From: Alphaproteobacteria bacterium
GTDB taxonomy: Bacteria; Pseudomonadota; Alphaproteobacteria; Caulobacterales; Caulobacteraceae
Length of the DNA: 43,722 nt
NCBI GenBank assembly: GCA_018826885.1
Contig: JAHJYN010000123.1
Span: 1-43,722, forward strand
Reading direction: 5' to 3'
Shown here piece after piece: positions 6,730 to 40,879 of this stretch. The stretch's first letter is position 1, and the number at the start of each line of letters is the position of its first letter. The notes under the pieces were generated by a model that was given only the letters and a program-made list of their open reading frames with translations, was not told the origin of the DNA and did no database searches. Both the position numbers and the translations under genes were made by a program.

Positions 6730-6733
6730 GGGC

Positions 6734-7381: not shown

Positions 7382-7466
7382 GGGATGGCGCTCCCCTCCG
7401 GGAATCGGACAAGACTGCTACCCTGACACCGTGACCGACTCTGGCAAGGCAGACTGTAACAGGCGC

Positions 7467-9690: not shown

Positions 9691-10739
9691 ACCGTTGGCA
9701 ACGCACCCTGGTCGGCCCGGACGCGCCCCTGCGGCAGGCGCTGAAAGCCATCGATTCGGCAGGCGTCGGGATTGCACTGGTGGTCGATGACGGCGGTGTC
9801 CTGCTCGGTACCCTGTCGGACGGCGATGTGCGCCGCGCCCTGATCAACGGGGCGGACCTGGAGCAGGCCTGTCACCCGTTTGTGCACACCACACCGGTCG
9901 TGGCCCCGGATGGTCTGGAGGAGGGCGCGGCCCTGACCATGCTGCGGGCCCGCAAGCTCCGCCAGCTGCCGCGCGTGGACCATGCCGGGCGGGTGACGGG
10001 GCTGACGACTGTCGGCGACCTGCTGGATGTGCCCGAGCGACCCGAGGCCGTGGTCATCATGGCCGGCGGCCGGGGCGAACGGCTGGCCGAGCTGACCCGG
10101 ACGACGCCCAAGCCGATGCTGAACGTCGGCCCGCGCCCGATTCTGGAGACCATCGTCTCCAGCCTGGCCGTACAGGGGTTTCGTCGCATCTTCCTGTCGG
10201 TCAACTACAGGGCCGAGCAGATCGTGGCCCATTTCGGCGACGGCAGCGACCGGGGGCTGACCATCGGCTATCTGCGCGAGGACCAGCCGCTGGGCACCTG
10301 TGGGGCGCTGTCGTTGCTGCCAGCCGAGATCGGGGGGCCGGTGCTGGTCACCAATGGCGATGTGCTGACCCGGGTCGACTATGGCCAGGTTATGGACGGC
10401 CACATTCGCGACGGCGCGGCTGCGACGGTGGTCGTGCGGGACTATGAGATGCAGGTGCCGTTCGGCGTGATCCGGGCCGCAGACGGCCGGATCAGCGGCA
10501 TCGAGGAAAAGCCCAGCCAGGTCTTCAACATCAATGCCGGGGTCTATGTGCTGTCGCGGGCGGCGCTGGGGCTGATTCCGGCGAACCGGCCCTATGACAT
10601 GCCGATGCTGATCCAGGCCCTGATCGACGCGGACCAGCCGGTAAGACCGCACCGGGCCGAGGGCTACTGGCTGGATATCGGCCGCCCGCCCGACTACGAC
10701 CGCGCCAATGCCGAGTTCGGCGCCGTGTTCGGCGGCTGA
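9687..10739 (+). CDS. CBS-domain sugar-1-phosphate nucleotidyltransferase (PtmE-like)
   Basis: N-terminal CBS pair (GTLSDGDVRR), IMAGGRGERL, PKPML, EDQPLGT.G, NGDVLT, EEKP, YWLDIGRP. Confidence 0.88.
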   Translation: MNRWQRTLVGPDAPLRQALKAIDSAGVGIALVVDDGGVLLGTLSDGDVRRALINGADLEQACHPFVHTTPVVAPDGLEEGAALTMLRARKLRQLPRVDHAGRVTGLTTVGDLLDVPERPEAVVIMAGGRGERLAELTRTTPKPMLNVGPRPILETIVSSLAVQGFRRIFLSVNYRAEQIVAHFGDGSDRGLTIGYLREDQPLGTCGALSLLPAEIGGPVLVTNGDVLTRVDYGQVMDGHIRDGAAATVVVRDYEMQVPFGVIRAADGRISGIEEKPSQVFNINAGVYVLSRAALGLIPANRPYDMPMLIQALIDADQPVRPHRAEGYWLDIGRPPDYDRANAEFGAVFGG

Positions 10740-12152
10740 TCAGGCGCGGCGGCCGTTCGGCGTTTGGGCCGTCTTCGGGGCGCTCCGGCGACGGGTCCGT
10801 CCGGGACGCAGTTCTTGGGCGGCGCCCTCGAGGATGGCGCAACACAGGGCGAACACGACCGCGATGGTTTCGGTCCGGAGGGGATAATCCGCGGCCGAGT
10901 GGGCGGCGATCAGCAACAGCGCGACCGAGGCTGCGCGCTGGAGATCGCGGTCGGGATGGCTGCCCGCACGCCAGGCGCTCCACGACCTCCGTCCCCACCA
11001 GACAAATGTGGCGATGACCAGCGCTATGCCCGCCCAGCCGCCTTCCAGCCAGATCTCGAGATAATCATTGTGCGCCTGGTTGAAATAGGCGGCTCTCAGC
11101 GTCTCGACGGGCTCATAGGACCGGTAGACTGGATCAAAGGAGCCCATGCCGGAGCCGAACGGCAGGAAGTCCTGGGCGGCCTGGGCCACGATCAGCCAGC
11201 CATCATAGCGGCCCACGAGTTGGGACTCCCGATCAAAACGATCCAGAATGGGGTCTAGGGCAAACAGGCCGACAACGGCCAGGCCAATAGCGCCGCCGAG
11301 GAACAGCAGCAGGATGGCGGGCCCGGGTCGGCTCCGGCCCGAGGAAATCCAGCCGATCATGAGACCCCCGGCGAGCGCGGGAATGGCGGCCAGAACCCCA
11401 AAGCGCGACTGGATGGCCCCGAGCGCGACAATGATCAGGCCGATGACCAGCCCGCCGGCCCAGAGTCTGAGGTTCGCGCTTCGATCCCGGCTGTTGAGGC
11501 CCCTTCCGGCCAGGGCCGCGGCGAAGGGAATGGCCACGAGGGAGAGGGTCGCCATATGGTTCCGGTTGGCAAAGAAGCCGACCAGCGAGCCGAAATTGGT
11601 GGTTTCCCACGGATAGACCGCGCGACTGTTGAGCGTGATCTGGAGCGCGCCCAGCAGGATCGCGACGATCACAAAGCCAAGTACAATCCAGATAAAGCGC
11701 GCCAGCACCCGCCGTTCAAGGCCCATAGCGGCAATCAGCATGGCCAGCGGCGGCAGGATGGCCAGAAAGGCCTGCCAGGTCCGGTCAGGGGTCAGTGACA
11801 GCGGCAACCAGGCGGGGGCGATGCCCGCGAGCTCGAGCGCCGTGACGGCGCTCTCCCGTCCCGGCAGGGAGGCCCAGAATGAGAAGGGCAGAGGGATGAG
11901 TTGAACAAGAGGAAGCAGGGCGGCCAGACCCGCCAGCGACAGCAGGAACCGGTGGTCTCGCCAGACGCCTGTTGCGGCCAGACGATAAAGCCCCAGTCCG
12001 AGGACGGGCAGGGCGGCCAGCTCGATGGCGGCCAGAGGCACCAGATGCGCGCGGCTGGCTCCGCCCAGGAACAAAGAAAAAGCCAGCAGAACACCGGCCG
12101 CAATGGCCAAAGCATTCCACTGGCTTGTTCGTTTCAGAAACGACCCGCTCAC
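10740..12152 (-). CDS. O-antigen ligase / Wzy_C family membrane protein, possibly oligosaccharyltransferase-like
   Basis: Many TM segments, GFFANRNH, SRFG, P.GSGMGSF, QAHNDYLE.W.EGG, HSAADYPLR. Confidence 0.85.
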   Translation of the reverse strand: MSGSFLKRTSQWNALAIAAGVLLAFSLFLGGASRAHLVPLAAIELAALPVLGLGLYRLAATGVWRDHRFLLSLAGLAALLPLVQLIPLPFSFWASLPGRESAVTALELAGIAPAWLPLSLTPDRTWQAFLAILPPLAMLIAAMGLERRVLARFIWIVLGFVIVAILLGALQITLNSRAVYPWETTNFGSLVGFFANRNHMATLSLVAIPFAAALAGRGLNSRDRSANLRLWAGGLVIGLIIVALGAIQSRFGVLAAIPALAGGLMIGWISSGRSRPGPAILLLFLGGAIGLAVVGLFALDPILDRFDRESQLVGRYDGWLIVAQAAQDFLPFGSGMGSFDPVYRSYEPVETLRAAYFNQAHNDYLEIWLEGGWAGIALVIATFVWWGRRSWSAWRAGSHPDRDLQRAASVALLLIAAHSAADYPLRTETIAVVFALCCAILEGAAQELRPGRTRRRSAPKTAQTPNGRRA

Positions 12153-12180
12153 TTACGCACTCGGAAACTGAGCGGGATCG
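12141..12180 (-). terminator. Stem-loop between small peptide gene and ligase gene, covering the ligase GTG start
   Basis: Arms CCCGCTCA (12144-12151) and TGAGCGGG (12169-12176), extended by CGA/TCG. On the minus strand it is followed by TTTCTG. Confidence 0.5.
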
Positions 12181-12186
12181 AAACTC

Positions 12187-12417
12187 TTACGGGCTGGTCG
12201 GCGCGTCGTCGTCCGAAGCAACCGAGATCACACCCACCAGAACGGCGGTGCCGATCAGGAGGACGGGCAACGGGATGCCCATGAAGTCGTTGGCAGCTTG
12301 CGCACGGGCACCGACACGATCGCCGACGCGCTCAACAGCGCTGTTATTTCCGGCGGCAACGGCTTGGCCTGCGATCAAAAGCAGACCCACCGAGGCAGCA
12401 GCGATGGTCTTACGCAT
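12187..12417 (-). CDS. 76-aa secreted peptide: signal peptide, linker, hydrophobic helix, acidic SDDDAPTSP tail
   Basis: Strong SD (AAAGGGGAA), AVA|A signal peptidase site, fits cleanly between two genes, CGT/GCT/GTT codons of the kind seen in highly expressed genes. Confidence 0.85.
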   Translation of the reverse strand: MRKTIAAASVGLLLIAGQAVAAGNNSAVERVGDRVGARAQAANDFMGIPLPVLLIGTAVLVGVISVASDDDAPTSP

Positions 12418-12445
12418 GCAATTCCCCTTTGAACAAAATCATTAC

Positions 12446-12502
12446 GCGGGTTTCCCCGCTCCTGTGAGAATGTGTTTAGGTCGTTTGGGTTGCGCAAGGC
12501 AA
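12446..12502 (-). promoter_or_regulatory. Candidate internal promoter and 5'-UTR GNRA hairpin for the small peptide gene
   Basis: Minus strand TTGCCT-N18-TAAACA (12502-12473), then GCGGG-GAAA-CCCGC (12459-12446), in a 149-bp AT-richer spacer. Confidence 0.35.
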
Positions 12503-12566
12503 GTCAAAAAGCGCTCCAAAAGACCCAAAAAGTGACTCTGGGGCATCCTGTGGCGGATTGGCACCG

Positions 12567-13844
12567 TCACTGGACCGCCACAATCTCAAGGTGTGAAAAC
12601 CATATGACAAGGTCGGTCCGGCGCCCGGGGTTCTCGCCGACCAGCTGAAGCGACTGGCTGTCACACCCGTCGGCAGGCACCTGAAACTCCATGGAAAAGG
12701 GCGTCCAGGTCTCGCTCGCCGCGGCGGTAGATCTCGTCGGAGCACCAAAGACAGCTTCACCCGCCGGACGCGCAGCCCCCTGACAGACCAGCTGCCAAGA
12801 GAAGGTCATTTCGCTTGTCCCGAACTCCCAGCGGGATCGCCCGAGCAGTCGATAGCGCCCGGGCGGCAGCAGGGTTATCTGCCGGGCCAGCACATCCCGG
12901 CTCTGGCCGTTGTGGCCTATTCGAAGGGCACCCGAGGGGAGGGCGTCGGCATTGGTTGTGTCCGGCGGGCCTGCATCGGCCAGGGCCGCGACGGAATAGC
13001 CGGCACCAACCGCCAGATCCCAGCCAAAGGGCAGGATCGCGGACTCAGCCTCAAATCGTCCATCGATCAGGGTCTGTCCGGCCGTGGGGCGGTCGAGGGC
13101 CGTGCGGACCTGGCGAAGGGCCCCGATCTGGCCCGCCGAATAGAGGCGTTGATACAGCTGTTGAAGTTCGCCGTCGGAAAAGCGGCCGTCGCTGTCCGCC
13201 ATGACCATGGCGAGCTGGGCGGCAAGCGCGACGCCGCCGTCGCGCTGGTAGAGGCTGCTGATGAAGGCGGCACGCCACGGCGGACTGTCCGCCAGCTCAC
13301 CCGCGAGGAAGGGCACGGACCTGGGGTCTGTTTCCATGGCCGTGCCGAAAAGGTCGAAGACCTGCGGGCGCAGTTCAGCCCGCCGTCGCACCAGCGTATC
13401 GGCATGGGCAAAGGCAGATCCATAGTCCCCGCGCCGCAGGCGGTTGTCGATCAACCAGCTGTGCGAACTGTCATCGCGAAGACTCCAGTTGCCGGCGAGT
13501 GTGAGCAGGTCATCCGCCAGAGCCCGGTCGCCGGTCTCGCCCTCGACCAGGCCTACGACCCGCAGGGCCTGAAGGTTGAACGGCGCGCGCTCCAGAGCCA
13601 TGCGAGCCAGTGCATCGGCATTGTCCATCCGGCCTGCGCGCCATTCCGCTTCGGACGCCTCGGCCAGCACCACGGCAGATCCGGGACTGAGCCGCACGGC
13701 GTGCTCAGCCGGGGCCCGATCCGCGAGCGGCACCAGAACCACCTGCCAACCCAGCCAGATGAGCCCAATGGCCAGTCCGACGGCGCCATAGCCAAGAAGG
13801 GGCGAGGCCTTGGGCGGAATGGGCTCGTCCAGTCCGTCCGTCAT
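12567..13844 (-). CDS. Membrane-anchored TPR-like protein with C-terminal carbohydrate-binding-like jelly-roll domain
   Basis: N-terminal TM, helical repeats (ALARMALERAP.N..AL), C-terminal LIDGRFE...PFGW...LLPPGRYRL...WTPFSMEFQVP..C...IWFSHLEI. TGATG overlap with wzc. Confidence 0.75.
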   Translation of the reverse strand: MTDGLDEPIPPKASPLLGYGAVGLAIGLIWLGWQVVLVPLADRAPAEHAVRLSPGSAVVLAEASEAEWRAGRMDNADALARMALERAPFNLQALRVVGLVEGETGDRALADDLLTLAGNWSLRDDSSHSWLIDNRLRRGDYGSAFAHADTLVRRRAELRPQVFDLFGTAMETDPRSVPFLAGELADSPPWRAAFISSLYQRDGGVALAAQLAMVMADSDGRFSDGELQQLYQRLYSAGQIGALRQVRTALDRPTAGQTLIDGRFEAESAILPFGWDLAVGAGYSVAALADAGPPDTTNADALPSGALRIGHNGQSRDVLARQITLLPPGRYRLLGRSRWEFGTSEMTFSWQLVCQGAARPAGEAVFGAPTRSTAAASETWTPFSMEFQVPADGCDSQSLQLVGENPGRRTDLVIWFSHLEIVAVQ

Positions 13845-16075
13845 CAGGACTTGCGCCCTTTCACCTCGGACGAGGATTTGGCGCCATAATCATAATCATA
13901 GCTGTAGTCATAGCCCTCATTCCGGGTCTTGCTGGCCTGGAATTTGGTCAGCACCGCCCCGAGCACGTTAGCGCGGCCGAAGTTGAGCCGGCGAAGCGCC
14001 CCGAGCGCCTGACGCCGCCCCGTCCCGCGCGACTCCAGCACAAACAGGGTGCCTTCAACGGACGAGGACAGCAGCGGTGCATCGGCAAAGCCCAGCACCG
14101 GCGGGCCGTCGATCACCACATGATCATAGATGGCCAGCGCCTGATCGAGCAGGACCTGCAGTCGATCCCCGGACCAGAGCTCGGCCGGATTGGGCGGCAG
14201 GGGACCACAGGGTATGAAGTCGAGCGTGGCGAAGGGGGTTTTGCGAACCACGCCCTGCAGCTCGGCAGACCCGGACAGGAAATTGCTCATCCCCTGGCTG
14301 TTATCCATCTCCAGCACGCGGTGCATGGAAGGATTGCGCAGGTCGCCGTCGACCAGAAGCACCCGTTTGCCGGTCCGCGACAGGTTGAGCGCGGTGGCAA
14401 AGGCGGTGGTCGACTTGCCCTCGCCCGGCCGGGCACTGGTCAGCAGCAGCGACTTGGGCGCCCCATGCGAGGTGGTAAATTGCAGCGCTGTCCGGAGCGA
14501 ATAATAGGCTTCCGAGAAGGGCGACCTGACATCGCGCAGGGCCGAAATGGCATCCTCGTCCTTGGCGAGCAGCGGAATGTTGCCCAGCCCCGGCAGGCCC
14601 AGTTTTTCTTCCACATCGCCCGGAGTGGTGATCGAGTCATCCAGCGCCTCGATCAGGAAGGCGGCGACCACGCCCAAGCCTAGGCCCAGCACAAAGGCGA
14701 GGGCGAGGTTCAGAGGCAGTTTGGGGCTCGACGGGGTCTTGGGCGCAATGGCGCGGTCGATCAGGGAGACGTTGTTGGCGGTCACACCGCCCGTCACACC
14801 CACTTCCTTGTAGCGTTGCAGCAGGCCATCGTAGAGCTGTCGGCTGGTATCGAGCTCGCGCAGGAGGATGTTGTACTCCACGCTGCGATCGCTGAGGTCC
14901 AGAACGTCGGTGCTCAGGCCGTTGACGCGGCTTTGGAGGGCGCGTTCCTGATTGAGCGCGATCTCATACTGGGCGCGAATACCGTCGCGAATGGAAACAG
15001 CCAGACTGCGGATCTGGTTGTCGAGTTCGTCGATGCGGTTCTGCAGTTCGACCATTTCCGGATAGTCGGCCTGCAGCACGCTTGATTTCTGCTGATACTC
15101 GGCCTCGACCGCGACGCGCTGGGCGACCATGGCCTGAATCGCCGGGCTGGCAATGACTTCCGGGATCGACATCAGCGATGCGCCCCGGGCCTGACGCCAG
15201 CGCTCCTCGGCCGAAATCCGGTCCACGCGCGCTTGCGAGAGCGCTTCGTTGATCGTCGACAGGCTGTTGGCGGCCAGCGAGCGCTGGGCACCGGTCCCGG
15301 CATTGGTGCTGTCCTCCAGGCGGATGATCTGCTGATCGTCCGCATACTGGACCAGCTGGCGTTCCGTCGCTTCCAGCTTGGCCTTGGTCTCGGCGATCCG
15401 CTCCTCAAGGAACTCGCGCACATAGAGAGAGGCGTCGAACTTCCGATCGAGGTTCGACTGGATGTAGTTTTCGGCTATGGCATTGGCCATCCGCGCCGAG
15501 ACGGCAGCGCTCGGGCTGCTAAAGGTGATCTCGACGAGCCGGGAGTCGCGCTGCGAGGAAACGTCGAGGCCGTCGGCGATCAAGTCGATGACCATTTCGC
15601 GGCGCCGGGCCATCTGCTGGGCTGCCGTTTCACCGTCGCGGGCTTCGAACTCGCCGCCCATCTGCTCGATGAACACGTCGGAACTGGCGAGGCCGAGGCT
15701 GTCGATGACGCGCTCCGCCAGGGACCGGCTGCGGATCAAACCATATTGCGTCTGGAAGAACTCCACCGAAAAGCGGAGGTCGGCCGCGCCGGTCTCCTCG
15801 GAGTCCAGGACGCGGGTCGCTTCACGGTCAATCTGGACCGTGGCCGCCGCTGTATAGGTGGGCGGGGTCAAGAGCGTGATGACGAGGCCGATGACAACGG
15901 CCGCCAGCACCGAACCCGCGATCAGCAGCCGGTGCTTCATCAGCATCGCCCAGTATTTCGCGAGGTCCAGTTCGACTTCGCGTTCCACCGACTCACCGAA
16001 ATGATCGGAGCCTTGATCCCGCAGCGACGGTCCTGCCTGCATCATCTCGCCAGATCCGCGACCCTCGGCCATCAT
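13844..16075 (-). CDS. wzc: Polysaccharide co-polymerase / BY-kinase Wzc (GumC family)
   Basis: Wzz-like TM + P.YTA.A, periplasmic coiled coils, P..PSSP-TM2, Walker A GEGKST, A' VDGDLR, B VIDGPP, Tyr cluster GYDYSYDYDYG. Start reset to ATG 16075/16072 after AGGA. Confidence 0.93.
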   Translation of the reverse strand: MMAEGRGSGEMMQAGPSLRDQGSDHFGESVEREVELDLAKYWAMLMKHRLLIAGSVLAAVVIGLVITLLTPPTYTAAATVQIDREATRVLDSEETGAADLRFSVEFFQTQYGLIRSRSLAERVIDSLGLASSDVFIEQMGGEFEARDGETAAQQMARRREMVIDLIADGLDVSSQRDSRLVEITFSSPSAAVSARMANAIAENYIQSNLDRKFDASLYVREFLEERIAETKAKLEATERQLVQYADDQQIIRLEDSTNAGTGAQRSLAANSLSTINEALSQARVDRISAEERWRQARGASLMSIPEVIASPAIQAMVAQRVAVEAEYQQKSSVLQADYPEMVELQNRIDELDNQIRSLAVSIRDGIRAQYEIALNQERALQSRVNGLSTDVLDLSDRSVEYNILLRELDTSRQLYDGLLQRYKEVGVTGGVTANNVSLIDRAIAPKTPSSPKLPLNLALAFVLGLGLGVVAAFLIEALDDSITTPGDVEEKLGLPGLGNIPLLAKDEDAISALRDVRSPFSEAYYSLRTALQFTTSHGAPKSLLLTSARPGEGKSTTAFATALNLSRTGKRVLLVDGDLRNPSMHRVLEMDNSQGMSNFLSGSAELQGVVRKTPFATLDFIPCGPLPPNPAELWSGDRLQVLLDQALAIYDHVVIDGPPVLGFADAPLLSSSVEGTLFVLESRGTGRRQALGALRRLNFGRANVLGAVLTKFQASKTRNEGYDYSYDYDYGAKSSSEVKGRKS

Positions 16076-16261
16076 CACATCCTGATACTGAACGTACGCG
16101 CGCCTGCCCCGCGGGCGCTTCCAGAGGGCTGATACCGTATACTTACCCGGGGGGCGAGACGTGAAATCAATCGATTGGCGCATTGGGTGACGATTGGCGC
16201 CGCCACTGTCGCAGGCAGACCATACCGGCCAGCCGACACGGTCTTCCGAAACGGCCGGATA

Positions 16262-17290
16262 TCAGGGGATCAGGGGTTGGCGGGCCTCACGGAGGACCGC
16301 AATCTCTTCGGCCACGCCTTCCAGCGACTGGATGCGTTCGCCCGCCGAGGGGTGCCCCCACTGCACCAACCGCAATTGGGGAAGGCGTGCCGACAGCATG
16401 CGCCAGTAGGGTCCGGCCCGCGCGGGGTCGTAACCGGCCCGGGCCGACAGAAACAGGCCCACACGGTCGGCGTCCCGCTCGGCCCGGACCAGTTCCCAAG
16501 GCGCGACCCCCCAGTTGCCGAGCACATCGCGGGCGAGCCCGACCTCATCAAAATAGGCCCGGTGATCGAGAATATTATGAGCTAGTTCATGACCCAGAAC
16601 GACAGCAAGGTCGTCGTCCAGCGGGCTCAAAGCCGCCAGGGCTGAGCTGATGAACACCCGTTCGCCATCGCCCTTCGCATAAAAGTCCGGCGACGGATCA
16701 AGCTGGAACGGATAGGCGCAACCCGGAACACTGCCGAGCCGCAGGGTGAGGCGCTGGCCGTTCCGCTCCACCCCGAGTTCGGCCGAGCCGTCCTGGAGCG
16801 CGTCGGTCAATCGGGTCAGATTCGCGGACAAGCCGTCGAACCCTGCGGCCCCCACAGGGCCTCCTCCCATAAAGGATTGGCCGTCCGCAGAAAGGAGTAG
16901 ATCGCCAACTCTCAGGCCGGCGTCGGCGGCGGGACTGTCCGGTACGACGGCCGCAACGCCGGGCAGGTCGCCCTTTAGCTGCCAGTCTTCGCGGGCGGCG
17001 GCCCGCAAATAGTCCGCGTACTGGCTTTCGGCGTGGAGAAGCAGGCCGGTGATCGGCCCGGTTCTTGGACAAAGTTCGACATTGGCCACCGAGAGGCGGA
17101 ACCCCACGGCATTGACCCGGGCATCGAGTGCATTGAGCGCCTTCAGGCGATCCGAGGGCGTCTCGATGGCGACCCCTGAGCCATAGGCGTCGGGCGGAAC
17201 GGGGCCTTCGGTCCTACAGGCCACAACAAGCAAGCAAGCGCTGACGAGGGCAGCGGTCCGTGCGCAGGGGGGCGTCCCGCAGCTAGTCAT
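16262..17290 (-). CDS. M48-family Zn metallopeptidase with PDZ domain, probable lipoprotein
   Basis: LLVVAC lipobox-like, PDZ (V.PDSPAADAGLRVGD), GHELAHN (HExxH), E..ADR.G, AGYDP, HPS..ERI. Confidence 0.82.
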   Translation of the reverse strand: MTSCGTPPCARTAALVSACLLVVACRTEGPVPPDAYGSGVAIETPSDRLKALNALDARVNAVGFRLSVANVELCPRTGPITGLLLHAESQYADYLRAAAREDWQLKGDLPGVAAVVPDSPAADAGLRVGDLLLSADGQSFMGGGPVGAAGFDGLSANLTRLTDALQDGSAELGVERNGQRLTLRLGSVPGCAYPFQLDPSPDFYAKGDGERVFISSALAALSPLDDDLAVVLGHELAHNILDHRAYFDEVGLARDVLGNWGVAPWELVRAERDADRVGLFLSARAGYDPARAGPYWRMLSARLPQLRLVQWGHPSAGERIQSLEGVAEEIAVLREARQPLIP

Positions 17291-17299
17291 CTCCGGTGA

Positions 17300-17983
17300 C
17301 TACAGGAATCGGAAGACCGCAAGTGCAGGAAGAGCACGAACAGCCTGCTGCAATGCAGCGCTAAGACGGGATGCATCAACCACAATGACATCATCGCCCA
17401 GCACCACCGGATCGGGCGCCTCACCCGCCCTGATAGCCGCGAGATCAAACACCGCGAACTGTCGCTGGCCATCTATCGTGCGGAAGACCACCACGCTGCG
17501 CAGGTCCGCCTCTGTGACCGGTCCCCGAGCCATGGCGACGGCCTGCAGCAAGGTGGTTCGCCCCTGCATCTCGTAGACGCCGGGTTGGGTCACGGCGCCG
17601 TCGACGGTGATCTTCTGGCTCGCGGCCTCCAGCACCGTTACCGTCACTTGGGGATTGCGCAGATACTGCGCTCCGAGGCGAGCGGCAAGGGATTCGCCGA
17701 GTTCGTCGGGCGTAAGACTCTCGGCCTGAACAGTACCGATTAGCGGCATCTGGATGACGCCTGACGCGTCCACGCGGATCTCATCGAATGAGAGATCAGG
17801 TACACGGAATACGTTGATGCGTAACAGGTCATTGGCTCCAATGCGGTAGTCTTGCGACGAGCTTCCGCTCGCTGACGTGCTGGCGAGCAGCGAATCGGTG
17901 GAGATTGACCCTTCTGTCCGACCGCCCGAACTCGTGCAGGCGCCGAGGGCGAGGATCGAGATCAGCAGCAGAACAATGCGCAT
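17300..17983 (-). CDS. wza: Outer-membrane polysaccharide export lipoprotein Wza
   Basis: LALGAC lipobox, YRIG.ND.L.I.VF, VD.SG.I.MPLIG.V.A, YLRNPQVTV, SLBB (VDGAVTQPG.Y), GDDVIVV, amphipathic C-terminal helix. Start reset to ATG 17983. Confidence 0.92.
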   Translation of the reverse strand: MRIVLLLISILALGACTSSGGRTEGSISTDSLLASTSASGSSSQDYRIGANDLLRINVFRVPDLSFDEIRVDASGVIQMPLIGTVQAESLTPDELGESLAARLGAQYLRNPQVTVTVLEAASQKITVDGAVTQPGVYEMQGRTTLLQAVAMARGPVTEADLRSVVVFRTIDGQRQFAVFDLAAIRAGEAPDPVVLGDDVIVVDASRLSAALQQAVRALPALAVFRFL

Positions 17984-18204
17984 GGCGAACAAACTCCCGG
18001 TGGTCGGACCGCATGCAGAGGAAACGCCTGTATGCGACCGGCACCTGATAGCCCCCAATGGGGAAATGTGCCACCACCCCGGCTGAAACTGCGGATTTTT
18101 TTCTGGACCGACTGGGCAAGCTGAGGCAGCAGGCTCACGAATGTCTCGCGACGGGCCAGTCGAAGAGGGGCTCGGGAAGCGCACCGTCGAGTAAGTCAGG
18201 TTTG

Positions 18205-18240
18205 GGAGGTAAATTTGTCATATAAATATAAGTGGTTTCG
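18205..18240. promoter_or_regulatory. AT-rich core of divergent promoter region between wza and the biosynthetic operon
   Basis: GTAAATTTGTCATATAAATATAAG in a GC-rich genome, just upstream of the 18255 start. Confidence 0.4.
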
Positions 18241-18254
18241 CGTAAGAGGCTGAC

Positions 18255-27405: not shown

Positions 27406-28562
27406 CCAGGCTGAAGGTGATGACGATCCTTGGCACCCGTCCCGAGATCATTCGGCTGTCGCGGGTGATGGACCGTCTGGACCGCTACACGGACCACATT
27501 ATCGTCCACACCGGACAGAACTGGGACTACGAGCTGAACGAGGTCTTCTTCGAGGATCTCGGCGTGCGCAAACCCGACCACTTTCTGGGAGTCGGTGGCG
27601 GCACTCTGGGGGAAACTCTTGGCGGCATCCTGGCGCAGACCGAAAAGGTGCTGGCCGAGGAGCGGCCCGAGGCGGTGCTGATCCTCGGCGACACCAATTC
27701 GGCGATCTCGGCGATCATGGCGCGGCGGATGAAGATCCCGGTGTACCACATGGAGGCCGGCAATCGGTCGTTCGACCGCAACGTCCCCGAGGAGACCAAC
27801 CGCAAGCTGGTCGACCACATCGCCGACTTCAACCTAGTCTATACCGAGCACGCAAGACGGCACCTGCTTTCCGAGGCTATCCAGCACCGGCGCATCTACC
27901 TGACCGGATCGCCGATGCGCGAGGTGCTCGAACACTACCGTCCTCGGATCGAGGCTTCGGACGTGGTGTCGCGGCTTGGTCTCGTCAACAAGCGGTATTT
28001 CATCGTTTCGCTGCACCGCGAGGAAAACGTCGACAACACTCAACGGCTCGGCTCGTTGGTGGACACGCTGAACGCGCTGGCGGAAAATTACGACATGCCG
28101 ATCATTGTCTCGACCCACCCCCGCACGCGGAAACGGCTGGACGCCCTCGGCGATCGCGCACTGGACGCGCGCGTGAAATGGATGACGCCGTTCGGCTTCC
28201 ATGACTATAACAGCCTGCAGGTGAATGCATTTTGTGCCATATCCGATAGTGGCACCATCGCCGAGGAGGCCTCCATTCTGGGCTTTCCGGCGATCACCCC
28301 GCGTGACGCCATCGAACGCCCGGAAGGACTGGATGCGGGGTGCATAATCATGACCGGACTGGATCAAGGCGCGATCCTGTCAGGGGTCGATTCGATCACA
28401 CGGAGTTTTGCCGAACGTCAGGCCGCGGCCTTGCCGCAACCGGTTCCCGCCGACTACTGCATCACCAACACCGCCGAGCGGGTGGTCAATCTGGTCCTCG
28501 GCACTGCGCGACTTTCCAATGCCTGGGACGGAATTCGCTCGAACGGAAATGCGGGGCAATGA
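27402..28562 (+). CDS. fnlC: Non-hydrolysing UDP-sugar 2-epimerase FnlC (CapG/WbjD)
   Basis: KVMTILGTRPEIIRLS, HTGQNWDYEL, GDTNS, HMEAGNR.FD..VPEE.NR, HREENVD, SDSGT, ERPEG. Confidence 0.92.
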   Translation: MTRLKVMTILGTRPEIIRLSRVMDRLDRYTDHIIVHTGQNWDYELNEVFFEDLGVRKPDHFLGVGGGTLGETLGGILAQTEKVLAEERPEAVLILGDTNSAISAIMARRMKIPVYHMEAGNRSFDRNVPEETNRKLVDHIADFNLVYTEHARRHLLSEAIQHRRIYLTGSPMREVLEHYRPRIEASDVVSRLGLVNKRYFIVSLHREENVDNTQRLGSLVDTLNALAENYDMPIIVSTHPRTRKRLDALGDRALDARVKWMTPFGFHDYNSLQVNAFCAISDSGTIAEEASILGFPAITPRDAIERPEGLDAGCIIMTGLDQGAILSGVDSITRSFAERQAAALPQPVPADYCITNTAERVVNLVLGTARLSNAWDGIRSNGNAGQ

Positions 28563-29170
28563 CGCCGTCGAAGGGGCAACTGGCGCTGAAGCGCGCGCTT
28601 GACGTGGTGTTGTCGGGCGTCGCGCTGCTGATTTTATCGCCGTTGTTCCTGGGGCTCGCGCTGTTCATCAAGTTTCGCAGCCCGGGCCCGGTGTTCTTCC
28701 GGCAGTCCAGGGTGGGGCTGGGCGGCGAGGACTTGTTACTTCTAAAATTCCGCTCGATGCACAGCAACGCTGCGGCCCTGCCTAACGCCGCGACGACCCG
28801 GCGCGCAGACCCACGGGTGTTTCCCGGTGGAGAAGCGATCCGCAAATACAAGCTCGACGAACTCCCGCAGATCGTGAACGTCCTGCTCGGAGACATGTCG
28901 CTGGTCGGCCCTCGACCGACGGTGCGCGAGGATTACGAGCGGATGACCGACGAGCAACGCCGCCGCGTCAGCGTTCGCCCCGGCTTGAGCGGTCTCGCAC
29001 AGATCAGCGGCAACACCGCACTCAGCTGGCCCCAGCGTATCGTTCTGGATCTCGAATACATCGACGATCTGTCGGTCTGGAACGATATCAAGATTATCGT
29101 GCGGACCTTCGGGCTGATCGTCTCGGGGCGGGCCGATACCCACCCGGCAAGTGACGACGAGTGGAGCTGA
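28559..29170 (+). CDS. Monotopic initiating phosphoglycosyl transferase (PglC/WbaP C-terminal type)
   Basis: KRALD, SPGPVFFRQ.RVG, KFRSM, LDELPQ..NVL.GDMSLVGPRP, RPGLSGLAQ. ATGA overlap with fnlC. Confidence 0.92.
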   Translation: MTPSKGQLALKRALDVVLSGVALLILSPLFLGLALFIKFRSPGPVFFRQSRVGLGGEDLLLLKFRSMHSNAAALPNAATTRRADPRVFPGGEAIRKYKLDELPQIVNVLLGDMSLVGPRPTVREDYERMTDEQRRRVSVRPGLSGLAQISGNTALSWPQRIVLDLEYIDDLSVWNDIKIIVRTFGLIVSGRADTHPASDDEWS

Positions 29171-31757: not shown

Positions 31758-31766
31758 GAATTCATC

Positions 31767-37044: not shown

Positions 37045-37994
37045 TGGCCGTTGCTCCTTTTTTCATCGTGGGTTGCGGTCGGTCCGGGACCACCCTGCTC
37101 AAGTCGATCGTGTCGGCGCATCCCGCGCTTTTCGTGATGCCTGAGACTTTCTTCTTCAGAAGCATCTCTCCAAATATTCCCCGCTGCGGATTAGAGCCGT
37201 GGCGCGCTGCATCGGGTTGGTGGCTCGCGGATATGGGCATTACTCCGGACGGCCTCGAACCGGCCGTGAAGGCGAGAATGGCCTCAGGCGCCTCTAGGGA
37301 ATGCTCTGTGCTTGGGGCGATATTCGACTTTCACGCAGCCGCGAACCCTGGCGTGGCAATCGGCGAAAAGACGCCCGACCATGTCAATCACATTGCGCGC
37401 ATCCGCCAGTGCTTTCCGAACGCCAAGATCATACAGATCATCCGCGACCCGCGTGCGGTTGTCGCGTCGTTTCGAAAAGTCAAAGTGGGTTCGAACGCCA
37501 TTGCCGACATCACGGCGGAATGGGCGCGAACTGAAGAGATTCTCGAGCTTAACACTGATAGCAATCAGTTCCTCGCATTGCGCTACGAAGACTTGGTATC
37601 CAATCCGGAAGCGCAGATCCGCGAGGTTTGCGCGTTCCTTGGCGTTGAGTGGACAACGAAGGTGTTGAATTTTCACAGTCGCAAGGACGCCAATTATGCG
37701 CCAGAACAGGCGCATCACGAGAACACTCGAAAGCCGTTGTTCTCCGACAGTGTAAATAGCTGGCGAGATGTGTTGTCCCCCAATGAGGTTGGACTGATTG
37801 AATCGGCGCTGAGTGCCGGCATGCAGAGGCAAGGCTATTCGCTGGAGGGCGGCAAGGTGGCTTTACCATCCCTGCAGATGGGACTTAGCCGGTTGGGCGG
37901 GCTCGCGCACCGATTCCTCGTGCGGATTCCGAGGCAACGAATTAAGGCTGTCAAAGCGCGAAGGCGCCTTGCTCGTGAAAGCTCACGGGGATGA
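37044..37994 (+). CDS. Sulfotransferase 3
   Basis: PFFIVGCGRSGTTLL...HP....PET, GEKTP, FP.AKII.IIRDPR.V..S, LRYEDLV.NPE....VC.FLG. Confidence 0.92.
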   Translation: MAVAPFFIVGCGRSGTTLLKSIVSAHPALFVMPETFFFRSISPNIPRCGLEPWRAASGWWLADMGITPDGLEPAVKARMASGASRECSVLGAIFDFHAAANPGVAIGEKTPDHVNHIARIRQCFPNAKIIQIIRDPRAVVASFRKVKVGSNAIADITAEWARTEEILELNTDSNQFLALRYEDLVSNPEAQIREVCAFLGVEWTTKVLNFHSRKDANYAPEQAHHENTRKPLFSDSVNSWRDVLSPNEVGLIESALSAGMQRQGYSLEGGKVALPSLQMGLSRLGGLAHRFLVRIPRQRIKAVKARRRLARESSRG

Positions 37995-39559
37995 ACGCGC
38001 TTTTCCGCGCCGAGCGCGGCAGAATCCTGTCGAACTACGCGCAGCTGTTTGGCGGTCTCCTGATCGGGCTTCTTGTTACGCGCATGCTGTTGGGCGCCGG
38101 GGAGCAGTTATTCGGCGTTTATATTACGATCACGGTCGGCATGGGTGTTTCGATCATGCTGACCGAACTGATGCGCATGGGGTTTGTCCCCGTGCTGGGC
38201 GCCAGTGTTTTCCAAGGAAAAGTCGTCGACATTCCGGAGTTTCGCGACGACCTCTTCGCCGCCTTCGTGATCTCAATTTGTGCTGCGATCCTTGGCGCCG
38301 GAACCATGGTGCTGCTTGGCGTCTGGCTGCTTTCGGATCTGGCTTCGCCCGCGCTGGAGAGGGCGGCCTGGACGTTTCTCTGGCTCAGGATCGCGATGAT
38401 GGGCGCCATCGTCTCTCTGACACCAGCTATGGCCGTGCTTCTCGTCAGCGGAAGACAACCCTTGTTCAATTTCTTCCTGTTTTTGGAAAGGCTAAGCGAA
38501 TTCGCGGGCGTTGCGATTCCATTGTGGCTGCTCACAGGGGCAAACTATTCTGAAGCTGATCGTTTGGCGCAGATCGGAATCGGCATTGCCGCGCTGACCG
38601 TTGCGACCTACCTCGTGGCCACGGTGGCTGCGTTTGCACCGGGACCGGAGTTCCGTCCGCGGTTGAGAATGCCGCGACCGAGCGTCATCCGCCTCATGCT
38701 GAAACGGATCGGATGGAGCAGCCTGCAAACAATCTCCATGAACATGTATGTGCGACTTGACGTGCTGATCGTGGCAGCCTTCCTCGGACCGGTCGGAACC
38801 GTCGCGCTTGGCGTCGCCATTCGCTTGATGGGATATGTGCGGCAGGCCACGATCGGATTGGTGAACGGGCTGGATGCGACATTCGCCAATCTTCACGGAC
38901 AGAAGCGCCGCAAAAGGGGTCAGGATGATGAAGGCCGGGAAACGTCGCTACGGCTCCTTGCCATGTCCACCTCCTTGCAGGGAGGCGTCGTATTCCAGCT
39001 GGGCGTTCTACTATTGATGCTCAGGGAAGACATCGTGCAGCTCTGGATCGGTGATCTCTTGGGGGGAGCGGGTCTGGCCAGTTCGGTCAATGAGATCGCG
39101 GCCTTGTCCAGCCTTATGATCATCGGCATCGGGTTCCGGAGCCTGAACCTGGGCTGGATGACGGCAATGACCGGAAGCGGAAACGCAAGGCATTTCACGC
39201 CATGGTTGCTGCCTGGAGCGCTGGGCAATGTCGTGATCCTTTTGGCCTGGGCCTATCTATGGCCTAAGACCTTCTCGGTTATGTCTGTCGGGTGGGTATT
39301 TCTCGCTTTGCAAGCGATCACCCATGTCTTCATTATCCCGATTGTCAGCGCTCGCTCGTTCAACTGTAAAGTATTGCATCTTGTAAGACCGCTCTTGTTG
39401 CCTCTCATACTAGCCGCCGTGACCTGTGGCGTTGCGCTGGGCTTAAAGGCACTTCTCGCCGATCTTCCGAAAGGGTGGAACGCCGTTGGGGTAGTGATTG
39501 CAGTCTCTGCGGGCTTTGCGCTGAGCTTGTTGATGACGCTTCGTCAAAGGCCCACTTGA
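37991..39559 (+). CDS. wzx: Oligosaccharide flippase (Wzx/MOP family)
   Basis: 522 aa with many TMs, LG...FGVY, D.LIV..FLG, LWIG; position in the cluster. Confidence 0.75.
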   Translation: MNALFRAERGRILSNYAQLFGGLLIGLLVTRMLLGAGEQLFGVYITITVGMGVSIMLTELMRMGFVPVLGASVFQGKVVDIPEFRDDLFAAFVISICAAILGAGTMVLLGVWLLSDLASPALERAAWTFLWLRIAMMGAIVSLTPAMAVLLVSGRQPLFNFFLFLERLSEFAGVAIPLWLLTGANYSEADRLAQIGIGIAALTVATYLVATVAAFAPGPEFRPRLRMPRPSVIRLMLKRIGWSSLQTISMNMYVRLDVLIVAAFLGPVGTVALGVAIRLMGYVRQATIGLVNGLDATFANLHGQKRRKRGQDDEGRETSLRLLAMSTSLQGGVVFQLGVLLLMLREDIVQLWIGDLLGGAGLASSVNEIAALSSLMIIGIGFRSLNLGWMTAMTGSGNARHFTPWLLPGALGNVVILLAWAYLWPKTFSVMSVGWVFLALQAITHVFIIPIVSARSFNCKVLHLVRPLLLPLILAAVTCGVALGLKALLADLPKGWNAVGVVIAVSAGFALSLLMTLRQRPT

Positions 39560-40879
39560 ATGACGTACAATGTGGCCCACCAACGGGGCGGATCGTCGCC
39601 TAACATGACCCTGCGAGGGGTGAGCGGAGTGCTGGCAACCTCTGCCGTGCTGCTCGCGCCGTTTACCTGGAGCTATATTGGATCGATCGGCGGCGTTTTG
39701 ATCCGCGCGGTCGATATATTGTTGCTGATGTCGCTCCTGGTCATGGCCCTAAGGCTTCGGCTGGCGATTTTGCCCATTCTTGTGCCTGCCTGCTTGTTCG
39801 GATTGATCTGCCTGAGCTTCCTGCGGGCGATAATTCACAACGACCCGGAGTCGACGGTTTCGGCCCTTAAGATCGGCTACTATCTGATTTCAGTGCTGGT
39901 TCTGGCGACAACTTTCCGGGAAATGGCAAGCAACCGCGACCATAAATCCATTCTGTATGCGCTACTTTTGGTTTCACCTATCCTGATCATATTTCTGATC
40001 GGGGTGGGAGAAATTTTCCTTAACTTGCTGCAATCACGATCACTTTTGAGCATGTCGCAGGTCATGTTCCGGGGCTGGAACGAACTGTTTTCACAAAACC
40101 TGTTTGGGGTCTCTGATTTCCGTCAGGTCGTGGGGGTCGAGTTTCGCAATTCGGCCGGGATGGCCTTCATGGTCGCAGCCCTCTTCTTCTTTATGTGGGA
40201 TGGAAAGATCAATCGAGCTACGACCATTATACTGATGGTCATCGCGGCGATGATGTTCTCACGATCAGTTTGGTTGATTCAGCTTTTATTCTTCGCCCTA
40301 GTGATTCTGCGCGGACGAGGTGCCAGCCGCGCCGCATGGCTGTTTGTCATACTGTGCGGTGCGGTCGCGGCCTTCCTCGCTCCGGCATTCAACGAGGCTC
40401 TTTCAGATCGCATTAATTCGCCCCTAGGCCGATCCGAGATGCTCGACGCCGCACTGAGCGAGTTCAACTCGTCCGTCCTTTTCGGTAGAGCCGAGGGGGC
40501 ACGGGTCGTTCTGGGCGATGGTGAATACAATGACGTGCACAACGTGCCGCTAGCTTTCGCACTGAAAACCGGGATCCTCGGCTTTCTGCTATCCGTGACT
40601 ATCGCATTAAGCTTCCTCGCGACTGCGGTCTCCCGGACAGTTCTGCTGTTCTCCCGCAAGCCGGTCGATCATAAGCGAACGATCGTAGTGATCCTGTTGT
40701 CGACCATCTTGTTTGTGCGACCGCTGGTCTCTGCCAGCCACGACATCTATTTCTCTATCGGCGAGTGGTGTGCACTGGCGATACTCCTGGCGTTGCAGAA
40801 AGAGTTGGGTTGCCAGCGTCGTATGCAGGCGGCCCAAATTGCACAGCCCGCGGTAAGCAGGGGGCATCGTCAGCGGTAA
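39560..40879 (+). CDS. wzy: Repeat-unit polymerase Wzy (putative)
   Basis: About 10-11 TMs, FSRS, R...FG...VHN..L......G.LG Wzy_C-like loop, directly after wzx, low GC. Confidence 0.68.
   Translation: MTYNVAHQRGGSSPNMTLRGVSGVLATSAVLLAPFTWSYIGSIGGVLIRAVDILLLMSLLVMALRLRLAILPILVPACLFGLICLSFLRAIIHNDPESTVSALKIGYYLISVLVLATTFREMASNRDHKSILYALLLVSPILIIFLIGVGEIFLNLLQSRSLLSMSQVMFRGWNELFSQNLFGVSDFRQVVGVEFRNSAGMAFMVAALFFFMWDGKINRATTIILMVIAAMMFSRSVWLIQLLFFALVILRGRGASRAAWLFVILCGAVAAFLAPAFNEALSDRINSPLGRSEMLDAALSEFNSSVLFGRAEGARVVLGDGEYNDVHNVPLAFALKTGILGFLLSVTIALSFLATAVSRTVLLFSRKPVDHKRTIVVILLSTILFVRPLVSASHDIYFSIGEWCALAILLALQKELGCQRRMQAAQIAQPAVSRGHRQR

What the first reader, a model, noticed from the sequence alone, without database searches (positions are those of the whole stretch)
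10740..17983. Candidate peptide-anchored capsule system: wza - PDZ/M48 protease - wzc - TPR/CBM - small peptide - ligase/OTase
Seen: four extra genes are embedded in the co-oriented wza/wzc export run. The ligase-like gene begins 34 bp after a 76-aa secreted peptide gene. The biosynthetic cassette already has its own Wzx and putative Wzy (37991-40879), so this Wzy_C protein need not be the polymerase. Known: dedicated O-oligosaccharyltransferases sit right behind their substrate gene (pilA-tfpO/pilO, comP-pglS), and PglL-type enzymes carry motifs resembling the ANRNH and HSAADYPLR seen here. Inference: the enzyme moves Und-PP-linked glycan onto Ser/Thr in the peptide tail (SDDDAPTSP), the M48 protease trims the pro-region, and the TPR/CBM protein scaffolds the handover. 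This would be an exosortase-independent analogue of PEP-CTERM/EPS systems. I know of no description of this unit.
Basis: partly seen in the sequence, partly recalled or inferred. Interest (0 to 1): 0.82.

Follow-up and report, generated by a model that had tools for sequence, protein, structure and literature searches.

The report
Peptide anchor for bacterial sugar capsules
Many alpha-proteobacteria carry, with their capsule-export genes, a set made of a sugar-transfer enzyme, a protease and tiny secreted proteins that nearly all have a serine one place from their end; the enzyme likely hooks the capsule sugar chain onto that serine, which would be an undescribed way of tying a capsule to a cell.

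Summary
Confirmed and extended. The six genes are real, and the 76-aa peptide belongs to an unnamed family: signal peptide, pro-region or small Cys domain, hydrophobic helix, polar/acidic tail and a Ser in the penultimate position (120 of 120 close, 134 of 147 distant homologs). The tail is modular and sits directly upstream of the ligase in Brevundimonas, other Caulobacteraceae, Hyphomicrobium, Methylocystis and a Bradyrhizobium plasmid. In 101 Sphingomonadaceae genomes ligase and peptide co-occur (57 both, 6/3 single, 35 neither) although mostly unlinked; the M48-PDZ protease follows the short form only (14 of 15 versus 0 of 11 Caulobacteraceae genomes). The ligase has the WaaL fold, PglL-type motif residues, occurs in genomes lacking lipid A genes, and a second polymerase candidate is often present. 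A complex prediction gave weak support for peptide-ligase binding. Best reading (0.55): an O-oligosaccharyltransferase likely attaches the Wzx/Wzy polysaccharide to that Ser, anchoring the capsule. Main difficulty: default topology would leave the Ser in the cytoplasm; the phylogenetically corrected ligase-peptide test is not significant; nothing is shown experimentally. Not a PEP-CTERM, PglL or TfpO/TfpM member. No description found in ten literature searches.

The parts
17300..17983 (-). wza: short OPX lipoprotein (Poly_export + SLBB, C-terminal amphipathic helix), 227 aa from the ATG at 17983
   Evidence: Pfam PF02563, PF10531; beside the ligase in 37 of 40 sphingomonad loci and 58 of 80 named loci
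16262..17290 (-). PDZ-M48 zinc protease with lipobox-like Cys; HELAH motif and downstream Glu/Asp invariant in 10 homologs; predicted processor of the short peptides
   Evidence: co-occurrence
13844..16183 (-). wzc: polysaccharide co-polymerase / tyrosine autokinase
   Evidence: within 10 kb of the ligase in 40 of 40 sphingomonad loci
12567..13844 (-). membrane-anchored TPR solenoid plus CBM4-like beta sandwich (425 aa), no curated family; predicted periplasmic partner of ligase/Wzc
   Evidence: model pLDDT 90.9; Foldseek hits to TPR and CBM4-2; 66 of 80 named loci
12424..12430 (-). ribosome-binding site AAAGGGG of the peptide gene
   Evidence: sequence
12187..12417 (-). 76-aa secreted peptide: signal peptide 1-22, pro-region, hydrophobic helix, acidic tail, penultimate Ser; predicted glycan acceptor
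12280..12351 (-). pro-region (residues 23-46) with conserved Arg-x-Gly/Ala; predicted M48 substrate
   Evidence: motif in 122 of 134 short forms; absent from long forms, which lack M48
12220..12276 (-). hydrophobic helix (residues 48-66)
   Evidence: hydropathy; crude insertion estimate -1.2, like a true membrane span
12193..12195 (-). codon of Ser75, the near-invariant penultimate serine; predicted attachment site
   Evidence: 120 of 120, 134 of 147, 25 of 25 long forms end Ser-Pro (rows selected for Ser/Thr)
10740..12152 (-). Wzy_C ligase, 470 aa, WaaL fold; R250, R315, H361 plus N198, G333, G335, H418, D422, P424; predicted O-oligosaccharyltransferase
39560..40879 (+). second, unrelated multi-membrane Wzy_C-like protein; candidate repeat-unit polymerase
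   Evidence: sub-threshold PF04932; no tblastn match to the ligase
37991..39559 (+). candidate Wzx flippase (522 aa, about 10 hydrophobic segments), no family hit
28340..29170 (+). initiating phosphoglycosyltransferase (Bac_transf) of the linked repeat-unit cassette

Best explanation
The ligase gene, the TPR-CBM gene, wza, wzc, the M48 protease gene and a family of small secreted proteins with a penultimate serine form one conserved unit, in which the ligase likely transfers the capsule polysaccharide from its lipid carrier onto that serine, so that the hydrophobic peptide would serve as the capsule's membrane anchor. Shown by sequence: the unit, the invariant serine, the modular tail, the link of M48 to short forms, the WaaL-type fold and active-site residues. 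Inferred, step by step: (1) the peptide is exported and its signal peptide removed; (2) in short forms the lipoprotein M48 protease removes the charged pro-region, leaving an uncharged ~30-residue helix plus acidic tail, while long forms keep a small Cys-containing domain and need no M48; (3) the tail is presented on the periplasmic side; (4) the ligase ends Wzy polymerisation by moving the chain from undecaprenyl-PP to the serine; (5) the TPR-CBM protein and Wzc/Wza hold or move the glycopeptide so that the chain stays cell-bound. Scattered paralogs (1-6 per genome) would be interchangeable anchors.
For: Penultimate Ser 120/120 and 134/147 while neighbours vary (P, D, A, N, G last); Thr replaces it in 3 long forms, keeping a hydroxyl. 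Same tail on unrelated N-terminal parts directly upstream of the ligase: 22 of 72 named loci with upstream room, 42 of 80 within 10 kb; blind detector gave 34 Ser of 45 hits there against 6 of 55 in the window's genome and 1 of 6 in 20 loci of other Wzy_C proteins. Genome-wide: Sphingomonadaceae 57 both, 6 ligase only, 3 peptide only, 35 neither; Caulobacteraceae 15 of 15 short-form and 11 of 11 long-form genomes are among the 39 ligase-positive of 161. M48 in 14 of 15 short-form and 0 of 11 long-form genomes, 11 of 19 short-form and 0 of 23 long-form loci, adjacent to a peptide gene in 9 sphingomonad genomes; peptide-M48 independent pairs median p 0.03. WaaL fold Z 21.1, rmsd 4.9, 360 aligned; residues that PMC3643930 lists as PglL-not-WaaL match by motif spacing. 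LpxB 0 of 4 and Kdo transferase 0 of 4 in ligase-positive sphingomonads. Second polymerase-type gene (EpsG or other Wzy_C) within 10 kb in 8 of 59 loci scanned. Complex prediction: weak support, score 0.58, best control 0.07 (ligase replaced), partner pLDDT 62-63, runs agree in at least 80% of contacts; passes at 0.60 or under were 18 of 157 solved and both of the 2 of 215 mismatches that passed. TfpO/TfpM precedent: ligase-family enzyme behind its acceptor gene, acting at a C-terminal Ser/Thr, TfpM moving long polymers (PMC9829042 passages).
Against: Topology: signal peptide plus one helix would by default leave the tail in the cytoplasm, away from the periplasmic active site; the short-form helix scores -1.4 (median of 134), similar to Wzc's spans (-2.4, -1.7), though long forms score +0.7 (crude recalled scale). 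Ligase-peptide independent pairs on the recA tree: only 5 supported pairs, 4.3 same way, 0 opposite, median p 0.125. 11 of 39 ligase-positive Caulobacteraceae genomes showed no tail protein by either profile or locus scan; G021, G645, G705 have peptides but no ligase or TPR-CBM hit. TfpO/TfpM use the last residue, here the Ser is penultimate. The PglL-type motifs are shared by a sister ligase clade without such peptides, and H418 is kept in only 61 of 91 family rows. PF15864 and Wzy_C_2 stay far below cut-off. No experimental data.
Confidence: 0.55

Rival explanations
1. The peptide is a small membrane subunit or regulator of the Wzc/ligase/TPR-CBM complex with its tail in the cytoplasm; the ligase transfers the polymer to a lipid (for example a glycosphingolipid or ceramide) and the conserved Ser is a binding or phosphorylation site; M48 turns the peptide over.
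For: Default topology and a helix as hydrophobic as real spans; explains co-occurrence equally well; some ligase-positive genomes lack a detectable peptide.
Against: Tail is net negative in 111 of 134 short forms, against the positive-inside rule; Ser/Thr interchange points to a hydroxyl; up to 6 scattered paralogs suit an abundant substrate better than a subunit; gene order acceptor-then-enzyme as for TfpO/TfpM/PglS.
Confidence: 0.2
2. The ligase does glycosylate the Ser, but only with short repeat units, and the processed peptides form a glycosylated surface layer or filament (pilin- or phage-coat-like) that is separate from the Wza-exported polymer.
For: Size, pro-region, dedicated protease and multiple paralogs resemble pilins; one homolog has a precomputed TrbC/VirB2 hit (P0395); TfpO transfers only short glycans (PMC9829042).
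Against: No assembly ATPase or secretin seen in the loci; the ligase stays with wzc in 40 of 40 sphingomonad loci; no NCBIfam pilin hit among 22 family members.
Confidence: 0.13
3. The Wzy_C protein is the repeat-unit polymerase (Wzy) and the peptide and protease are accessory.
For: It lies in the export operon; PMC11340318 calls a Sphingomonas gene in a comparable position wzyB, and its deletion makes cells denser; a second polymerase was found in only 8 of 59 loci of 20 kb.
Against: One conserved clade (92 rows, support 96) serves cassettes with very different sugar genes (pseudaminic acid, rhamnose, fucose, sulfated sugars); WaaL fold ranks above SEDS polymerases; the window and the cluster in PMC11340318 (EpsG gene two places away) hold another polymerase candidate; several genomes carry it away from any wzc.
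Confidence: 0.09
4. It is an ordinary WaaL that puts repeat units on lipid A-core.
For: WaaL fold; the window's genome has LpxB and Kdo transferase.
Against: Present in 63 of 101 Sphingomonadaceae genomes; LpxB found in 0 of 4 and Kdo transferase in 0 of 4 tested ligase-positive ones; does not explain peptide or protease.
Confidence: 0.03

Closest known systems
TfpO and TfpM O-oligosaccharyltransferases with their cognate pilins (PMC9829042, passages read)
   Same: Wzy_C enzyme of 420-470 aa without the PglL C-terminal domain, encoded right behind its acceptor gene; acceptor site a Ser/Thr at the C-terminal end; catalytic His conserved; TfpM moves long polysaccharides.
   Different: Acceptor is not a type IV pilin; Ser is penultimate, not last; the enzyme is fixed in a wza-wzc operon with a TPR-CBM protein and an M48 protease; acceptors are multi-copy and modular.
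PEP-CTERM/exosortase systems and other tripartite C-terminal sorting signals (10.1101/2023.06.07.544157 and 10.64898/2025.12.21.693542, passages read)
   Same: Short C-terminal hydrophobic domain on varied N-terminal parts, several copies per genome, co-occurring protease, link to a Wza/Wzc locus with a TPR protein and a ligase-like gene.
   Different: Order inverted: helix, then polar/acidic tail, then the conserved residue; no Arg cluster; protease is a soluble-domain M48-PDZ, no exosortase found in 5 of 5 genomes; the tail would be kept and modified, not cut off. The 'sphingomonadales_eps' cluster of epsSMASH is the exosortase-linked one.
PglL/PglS general O-oligosaccharyltransferases (PMC3643930, passages read)
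   Same: Motif residues listed as PglL-specific (N180, G316, G318, H400, E404, P406) have counterparts N198, G333, G335, H418, D422, P424.
   Different: PF15864 and PF11846 far below cut-off; about 100 aa shorter; acceptor site terminal rather than internal.
Group 1 (Wzx/Wzy, Wza-Wzc) capsules retained by the lectin Wzi; LCP-anchored capsules of monoderms (PMC13721041, passages read)
   Same: Same export core.
   Different: That review lists non-covalent Wzi capture, a glycolipid anchor (groups 2/3) and peptidoglycan attachment; no peptide anchor. No Wzi or beta-barrel partner was noted in these loci.
Caulobacter crescentus capsule locus CCNA_00162-00168 (PMC4241560, passages read)
   Same: Wzc next to an O-antigen ligase-like gene, both needed for capsule, with a separate polymerase (CCNA_00470) elsewhere.
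   Different: In a genome with that arrangement (L107) the 162-like gene is a BBP2 beta-barrel, not TPR-CBM; its ligase falls in a sister clade (E about 1e-23); no tail peptide or M48 in the 20 kb; the protease there is HvyA (C93).
Sphingomonas sp. LM7 cluster B, cell-associated polysaccharide (PMC11340318, parts 1-3 of 9 and passages read)
   Same: RS19300 ('wzyB') lies two genes before wzc and two after an EpsG gene, fitting the common ligase-wza-wzc order; deletion removes a cell-bound, buoyancy-giving polysaccharide.
   Different: Orthology to this ligase could not be checked (no sequence available); the paper treats it as the polymerase and mentions no peptide or protease in the passages seen.

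Membership tests
PEP-CTERM-type tripartite sorting signal | cluster of basic residues after the hydrophobic segment | tested here: not met
   tail net negative in 111, neutral in 17, positive in 6 of 134 short forms
PEP-CTERM-type tripartite sorting signal | signature motif before the helix and a curated CTERM model hit | tested here: not met
   no NCBIfam hit near cut-off in 22 members; best PEFG-CTERM E 0.08
PEP-CTERM-type tripartite sorting signal | cognate exosortase in the genome | tested here: not met
   PF09721 in 0 of 5 Brevundimonas-type genomes 91-100% complete; sphingomonads not tested
PEP-CTERM-type tripartite sorting signal | C-terminal location, modular, multi-copy, co-occurring protease | tested here: met
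TIGR03097 exosortase-associated O-glycosylation ligase | model score above cut-off | tested here: not met
   2 of 15 members hit, best E 9e-7; window protein none
PglL/PglS | PglL_A (PF15864) and C-terminal Wzy_C_2 domain | tested here: not met
   best E 0.071 (3 of 15) and 0.0025 (5 of 15); window protein 9.8 bits against cut-off 28.5
PglL/PglS | PglL-not-WaaL residues | tested here: inconclusive
   counterparts by motif spacing, no PglL sequence aligned; also present in a sister clade; H418 in 61 of 91
TfpO/TfpM | acceptor gene directly upstream, Wzy_C, 420-470 aa, catalytic His | tested here: met
   (H361 in 90 of 91)
TfpO/TfpM | acceptor is a type IV pilin with Ser/Thr as last residue | tested here: not met
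   no pilin family hit; Ser penultimate
TfpO/TfpM | phylogenetic placement with TfpO/TfpM | not tested
   no TfpO/TfpM sequence was fetched
any O-oligosaccharyltransferase | transfer of glycan to protein Ser/Thr | not testable with these tools
   needs glycoproteomics
WaaL O-antigen ligase | GT-C fold with Arg/Arg/His site | tested here: met
   7tpj Z 21.1, rmsd 4.9, 360 aligned; R250, R315, H361
WaaL O-antigen ligase | lipid A-core acceptor made by the host | tested here: not met
   LpxB 0 of 4, Kdo transferase 0 of 4 in single-contig ligase-positive sphingomonads; the window's own genome has both
Wzy polymerase | sole polymerase of the cassette, varying with the repeat unit | tested here: inconclusive
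   second candidate in the window and 8 of 59 loci; ligase conserved across different sugar cassettes
CCNA_00162-00168 capsule locus | beta-barrel partner, 620-aa ligase, HvyA | tested here: not met
M48 zinc protease | HExxH plus downstream Glu | tested here: met
   H234, E235, H238, E271, D275 invariant in 10 of 10

The most novel reading that the evidence does not exclude
A widespread alphaproteobacterial capsule class is covalently built on a dedicated ribosomal peptide: an M48-PDZ protease matures a ~30-residue hydrophobic peptide into a lipid-like anchor, a dedicated oligosaccharyltransferase caps its penultimate serine with the whole Wzx/Wzy polymer, and the helix-acidic tail-Ser-X end is a new, inverted C-terminal signal that can be grafted onto any secreted domain. 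It would replace lipid A as the polysaccharide carrier in LPS-less sphingomonads.
Probability: 0.45. Interest if true: 0.92.

Novelty: categorically new. Interest (0 to 1): 0.82.

Why it matters
How Wzy-dependent chains are released from undecaprenyl-PP and kept on the surface of Gram-negative cells is an open question; the review read here (PMC13721041) lists only non-covalent Wzi capture. This unit names an enzyme, an acceptor residue and a maturing protease, so the question becomes testable with one point mutation. It occurs in 63 of 101 Sphingomonadaceae and 39 of 161 Caulobacteraceae genomes searched and in Hyphomicrobium, Methylocystis and Methylosinus records, and gives a role to a large set of 'hypothetical' 70-90-aa proteins. 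An enzyme that accepts very different polymers and a tail of about ten residues would also be a new tool for glycoconjugate engineering. The parts belong to known enzyme families and the chemistry resembles TfpO/TfpM, so if only short glycans are transferred it shrinks to a new variant of a known kind.

Tried and rejected
Orthology to the C. crescentus capsule locus: rejected. Sequence search of the ligase profile against solved structures: 0 hits. Promoter scan 10600-18400: 0 sigma-70-like sites, terminators at chance level. RNA runs: no RNA holder listed. Protein Atlas: not answered, so no Atlas evidence either way. Fifteen weak short-form hits (E 3e-5 to 1e-3, signal-peptide half only) and the weak hits (E above 0.007) were dropped as noise before counting; two partial M48 hits (E about 1e-40, ligase-negative genomes) were counted apart; two ligase hits at 1e-23 to 1e-25 belong to the sister clade and were not counted. 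Fisher test (p 2e-17) is not relied on because kin are not independent; the recA tree held 89 of 101 genomes (11 not fetched, 1 not parsed) and is weakly supported. Earlier findings of the scan: 5 look-ups, nothing. Literature: 10 searches gave no description of the unit; subscription journals are mostly not searched, and the supplements of PMC11340318 could not be read, which leaves the LM7 orthology open. No tree with WaaL, PglL, TfpO, TfpM or PglS sequences was built.

Full report
Observation. The six genes lie as described on the minus strand, with 34 bp between the peptide stop and the ligase start. Pfam gives Wza, M48+PDZ, Wzc and Wzy_C; the peptide and the 425-aa protein hit no Pfam family, and NCBIfam nothing near a cut-off. 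Homolog names point to Brevundimonas. The rest of the window is a repeat-unit cassette (initiating transferase, glycosyltransferases, three sulfotransferases, cysDNC, Fnl and Leg-type genes) with a second Wzy_C-like membrane protein below cut-off and an unassigned Wzx-like protein.

The peptide. It has a ribosome site and evolves as a protein (84 synonymous, 32 non-synonymous changes against four homologs). All 120 listed close homologs have Ser in the penultimate position while the last residue is D, P, N or V. Among 177 distant members, 147 passed a detector for signal peptide, C-terminal helix and polar tail that ignores tail letters; 134 of these have penultimate Ser, against 7, 20 and 49 at the last, third-last and fourth-last places. 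Short forms carry an Arg-x-Gly/Ala pro-region (122 of 134) and a tail that is net negative in 111 of 134. Long forms of 125-210 aa put a small two-Cys domain before the same helix and tail; three end in Thr-Pro. The tail is therefore a modular C-terminal signal.

Synteny. In the first relatives the peptide precedes the ligase in most close loci, and where it does not, a copy lies a few kb away, often beside the M48 gene. Of 80 named loci from GTDB (Sphingomonas, Caulobacteraceae, Hyphomicrobium, Methylocystis, Methylosinus, Filomicrobium, Amorphus and others), 66 hold the TPR-CBM gene, 60 wzc, 58 wza; 42 hold a tail protein, and in 22 of 72 with room it is the gene directly upstream. The blind detector returned 34 Ser among 45 hits in these loci, against 6 of 55 in the window's genome and 1 of 6 in 20 loci of more distant Wzy_C proteins. 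An unannotated long form precedes the ligase on Bradyrhizobium plasmid NZ_CP094524. In 40 sphingomonad loci wzc was present in 40, wza 37, TPR-CBM 29, a peptide in only 8 and M48 in 1: there the peptides lie elsewhere.

Genome-wide co-occurrence. In one draw of 101 Sphingomonadaceae genomes the ligase was found in 63, the peptide in 60 and M48-PDZ in 63: ligase and peptide together in 57, ligase alone 6, peptide alone 3 (one has a ligase fragment at a contig end), neither 35; ligase and M48 59; peptide and M48 57. M48 lies within about 350 bp of a peptide gene in 9 of these genomes (places). On a recA tree of 89 of them each trait changes 16-20 times; independent pairs on supported branches gave ligase-peptide 4.3 of 5 the same way, none opposite, median p 0.125, and peptide-M48 median p 0.03. 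In 161 Caulobacteraceae genomes 39 have the ligase at E below 1e-90; all 15 with strong short-form hits and all 11 with long forms are among them; two more have a tail protein by locus scan, 11 have none detected. Strong M48 hits occur in 14 genomes, all short-form; none of the 11 long-form genomes has one, and the named loci agree (11 of 19 against 0 of 23). Among 37 genomes of the window's genus, 13 have ligase and short form, 2 ligase and long form, 3 peptide only (two of them 78-80% complete; G021 complete, also without TPR-CBM), 19 neither.

The ligase. Its model (pLDDT 83.5) matches WaaL first (Foldseek E 1.9e-6; Z 21.1, rmsd 4.9, 360 aligned, ahead of SEDS proteins at 15.7). Across 91 family rows R315, N198, G333, G335 and S249 are invariant, H361 and P424 in 90, D422 in 87, R250 in 85, H418 in 61. 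By motif spacing these correspond to the catalytic and PglL-specific residues listed in PMC3643930; no PglL was aligned, the PglL profiles stay below cut-off, and a sister clade shares most of the motifs. The family is one side of a branch with support 96, apart from the CCNA_00164-like and HfsC-like proteins (the family was itself defined by the profile). Ligase-positive sphingomonads lack LpxB (0 of 4) and Kdo transferase (0 of 4), so lipid A-core is not the acceptor there. The same clade sits beside pseudaminic acid, rhamnose, fucose and sulfation genes, and an EpsG or second Wzy_C gene lies within 10 kb in 8 of 59 loci, which argues against it being the polymerase without excluding it.

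The other parts. The 425-aa protein folds as a membrane helix, TPR solenoid and CBM4-like sandwich (pLDDT 90.9) and often overlaps the ligase start by a few bases. The M48 protein keeps HExxH and the downstream Glu in 10 of 10 homologs. A three-chain prediction scored the mature peptide against ligase plus TPR-CBM at 0.58, best control 0.07 (ligase replaced), partner pLDDT 62-63, runs agreeing in at least 80% of contacts; the tool rates this weak, since at 0.60 or under only 18 of 157 solved complexes and both passing mismatches of 215 were found.

Mechanism. Most likely the ligase ends polymerisation by moving the chain from undecaprenyl-PP to the penultimate Ser; M48 likely removes the charged pro-region of short forms to leave a lipid-like helix; TPR-CBM likely holds the glycopeptide at Wzc/Wza. 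The chief difficulty is topology. A signal peptide and one helix would leave the tail in the cytoplasm, and on a crude recalled insertion scale the short-form helix (median -1.4) is close to real spans (Wzc -2.4, -1.7), though long forms (+0.7) are not. The acidic tail and the helix's closeness to the C-terminus make full export or inversion plausible (inference), but this must be measured. I put the unit's functional link at about 0.9, glycosylation of the Ser at about 0.65 and anchoring of the long polymer at 0.55.

Comparison with the known. It works like TfpO/TfpM (PMC9829042, passages) joined to a group 1 export core, and is organised like a C-terminal sorting system (10.1101/2023.06.07.544157, passages), but fails the defining tests of each: no basic cluster, no exosortase in 5 of 5 genomes, no pilin, Ser not last. 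The C. crescentus capsule locus (PMC4241560, passages) is a different unit. Sphingomonas LM7 cluster B (PMC11340318, parts 1-3 and passages) may be a member with a matching phenotype, loss of a cell-bound polysaccharide, but orthology is unchecked. The review PMC13721041 (passages) lists no peptide anchor, and the epsSMASH Sphingomonadales cluster (10.64898/2025.12.21.693542, passages) is exosortase-linked. Ten full-text searches found no description; subscription literature is largely outside them. That sphingomonads use glycosphingolipids instead of LPS, and the positive-inside rule, are recalled knowledge.

Verdict. A real, widespread, apparently undescribed unit with a precise testable prediction; mechanism inferred. 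Interest 0.82.

Noticed in passing
L107:5503-6138 and 6105-15368 (G196): Locus with the CCNA_00162-00168 arrangement: BBP2 barrel, Wzc, 642-aa ligase, transferase, HvyA-like C93 protease, phosphatase, Wza. Directly upstream lies a secreted Ala/Pro-rich 211-aa protein with a C-terminal Cys pair and no Pfam hit; it could be the acceptor of that sister ligase and the unknown HvyA target.
   Followed up: partly
L127-L146: A sister clade of Wzy_C proteins (E 1e-20 to 1e-33) in many alphaproteobacterial families lies near wzc in 16 of 20 loci and shares the N-x-N and H-x3-D motifs but has no Ser-X tail proteins; its acceptor is unknown.
   Followed up: partly
L436:9199-9681, P0414, L099:2901-3356: The N-terminal domain of long forms weakly resembles the LapA retention module (NF033682, best E 1.6e-5, below cut-off), hinting at a plug that keeps the polymer threaded in the export pore.
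   Followed up: no
L191, L196, L201, L202, L204, L206, L209-L212: In many sphingomonad genomes one or two peptide genes sit at a conserved place beside a tatC-like gene and an amidohydrolase-like gene (identified by eye), far from the capsule locus.
   Followed up: no
L377:9096-9452: Methylocystis variant directly upstream of the ligase whose tail extends past the Ser and ends with a Cys pair around it, like the disulfide loop of pilin acceptors.
   Followed up: no
window 20461-24931 and 30858-37994: cysD, cysNC, TauE, cysQ and three sulfotransferases with a formyltransferase and PIG-L deacetylase: the polymer is predicted to be a sulfated amino-sugar polysaccharide.
   Followed up: no
window 5662-10739: Legionaminic-acid-type genes (legB, neuC, neuB, CBS-nucleotidyltransferase) converge on the ligase; the aminotransferase found after legB in relatives (L051, L054, L055) has no counterpart hit here, where a 266-aa ORF without Pfam match lies.
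   Followed up: no
window 20171-20479: 102-aa fragment of an NAD-dependent epimerase, probably a gene remnant.
   Followed up: no
P0177, P0167, P0220, P0409: Database names for peptide homologs are wrong-looking ('ferrochelatase', 'ABC permease', 'acyl-CoA synthetase'); most are 'hypothetical protein'.
   Followed up: no
G627:C12:970305-971708; G652:C1:1773096-1774451: Ligase in two pieces (G627, which also lacks a peptide hit) or with an internal stop (G652).
   Followed up: no
L084-L087, L092, L098, L100, L114, L115: In one Caulobacteraceae genus the ligase often stands alone, away from wzc and without a detected tail protein.
   Followed up: partly
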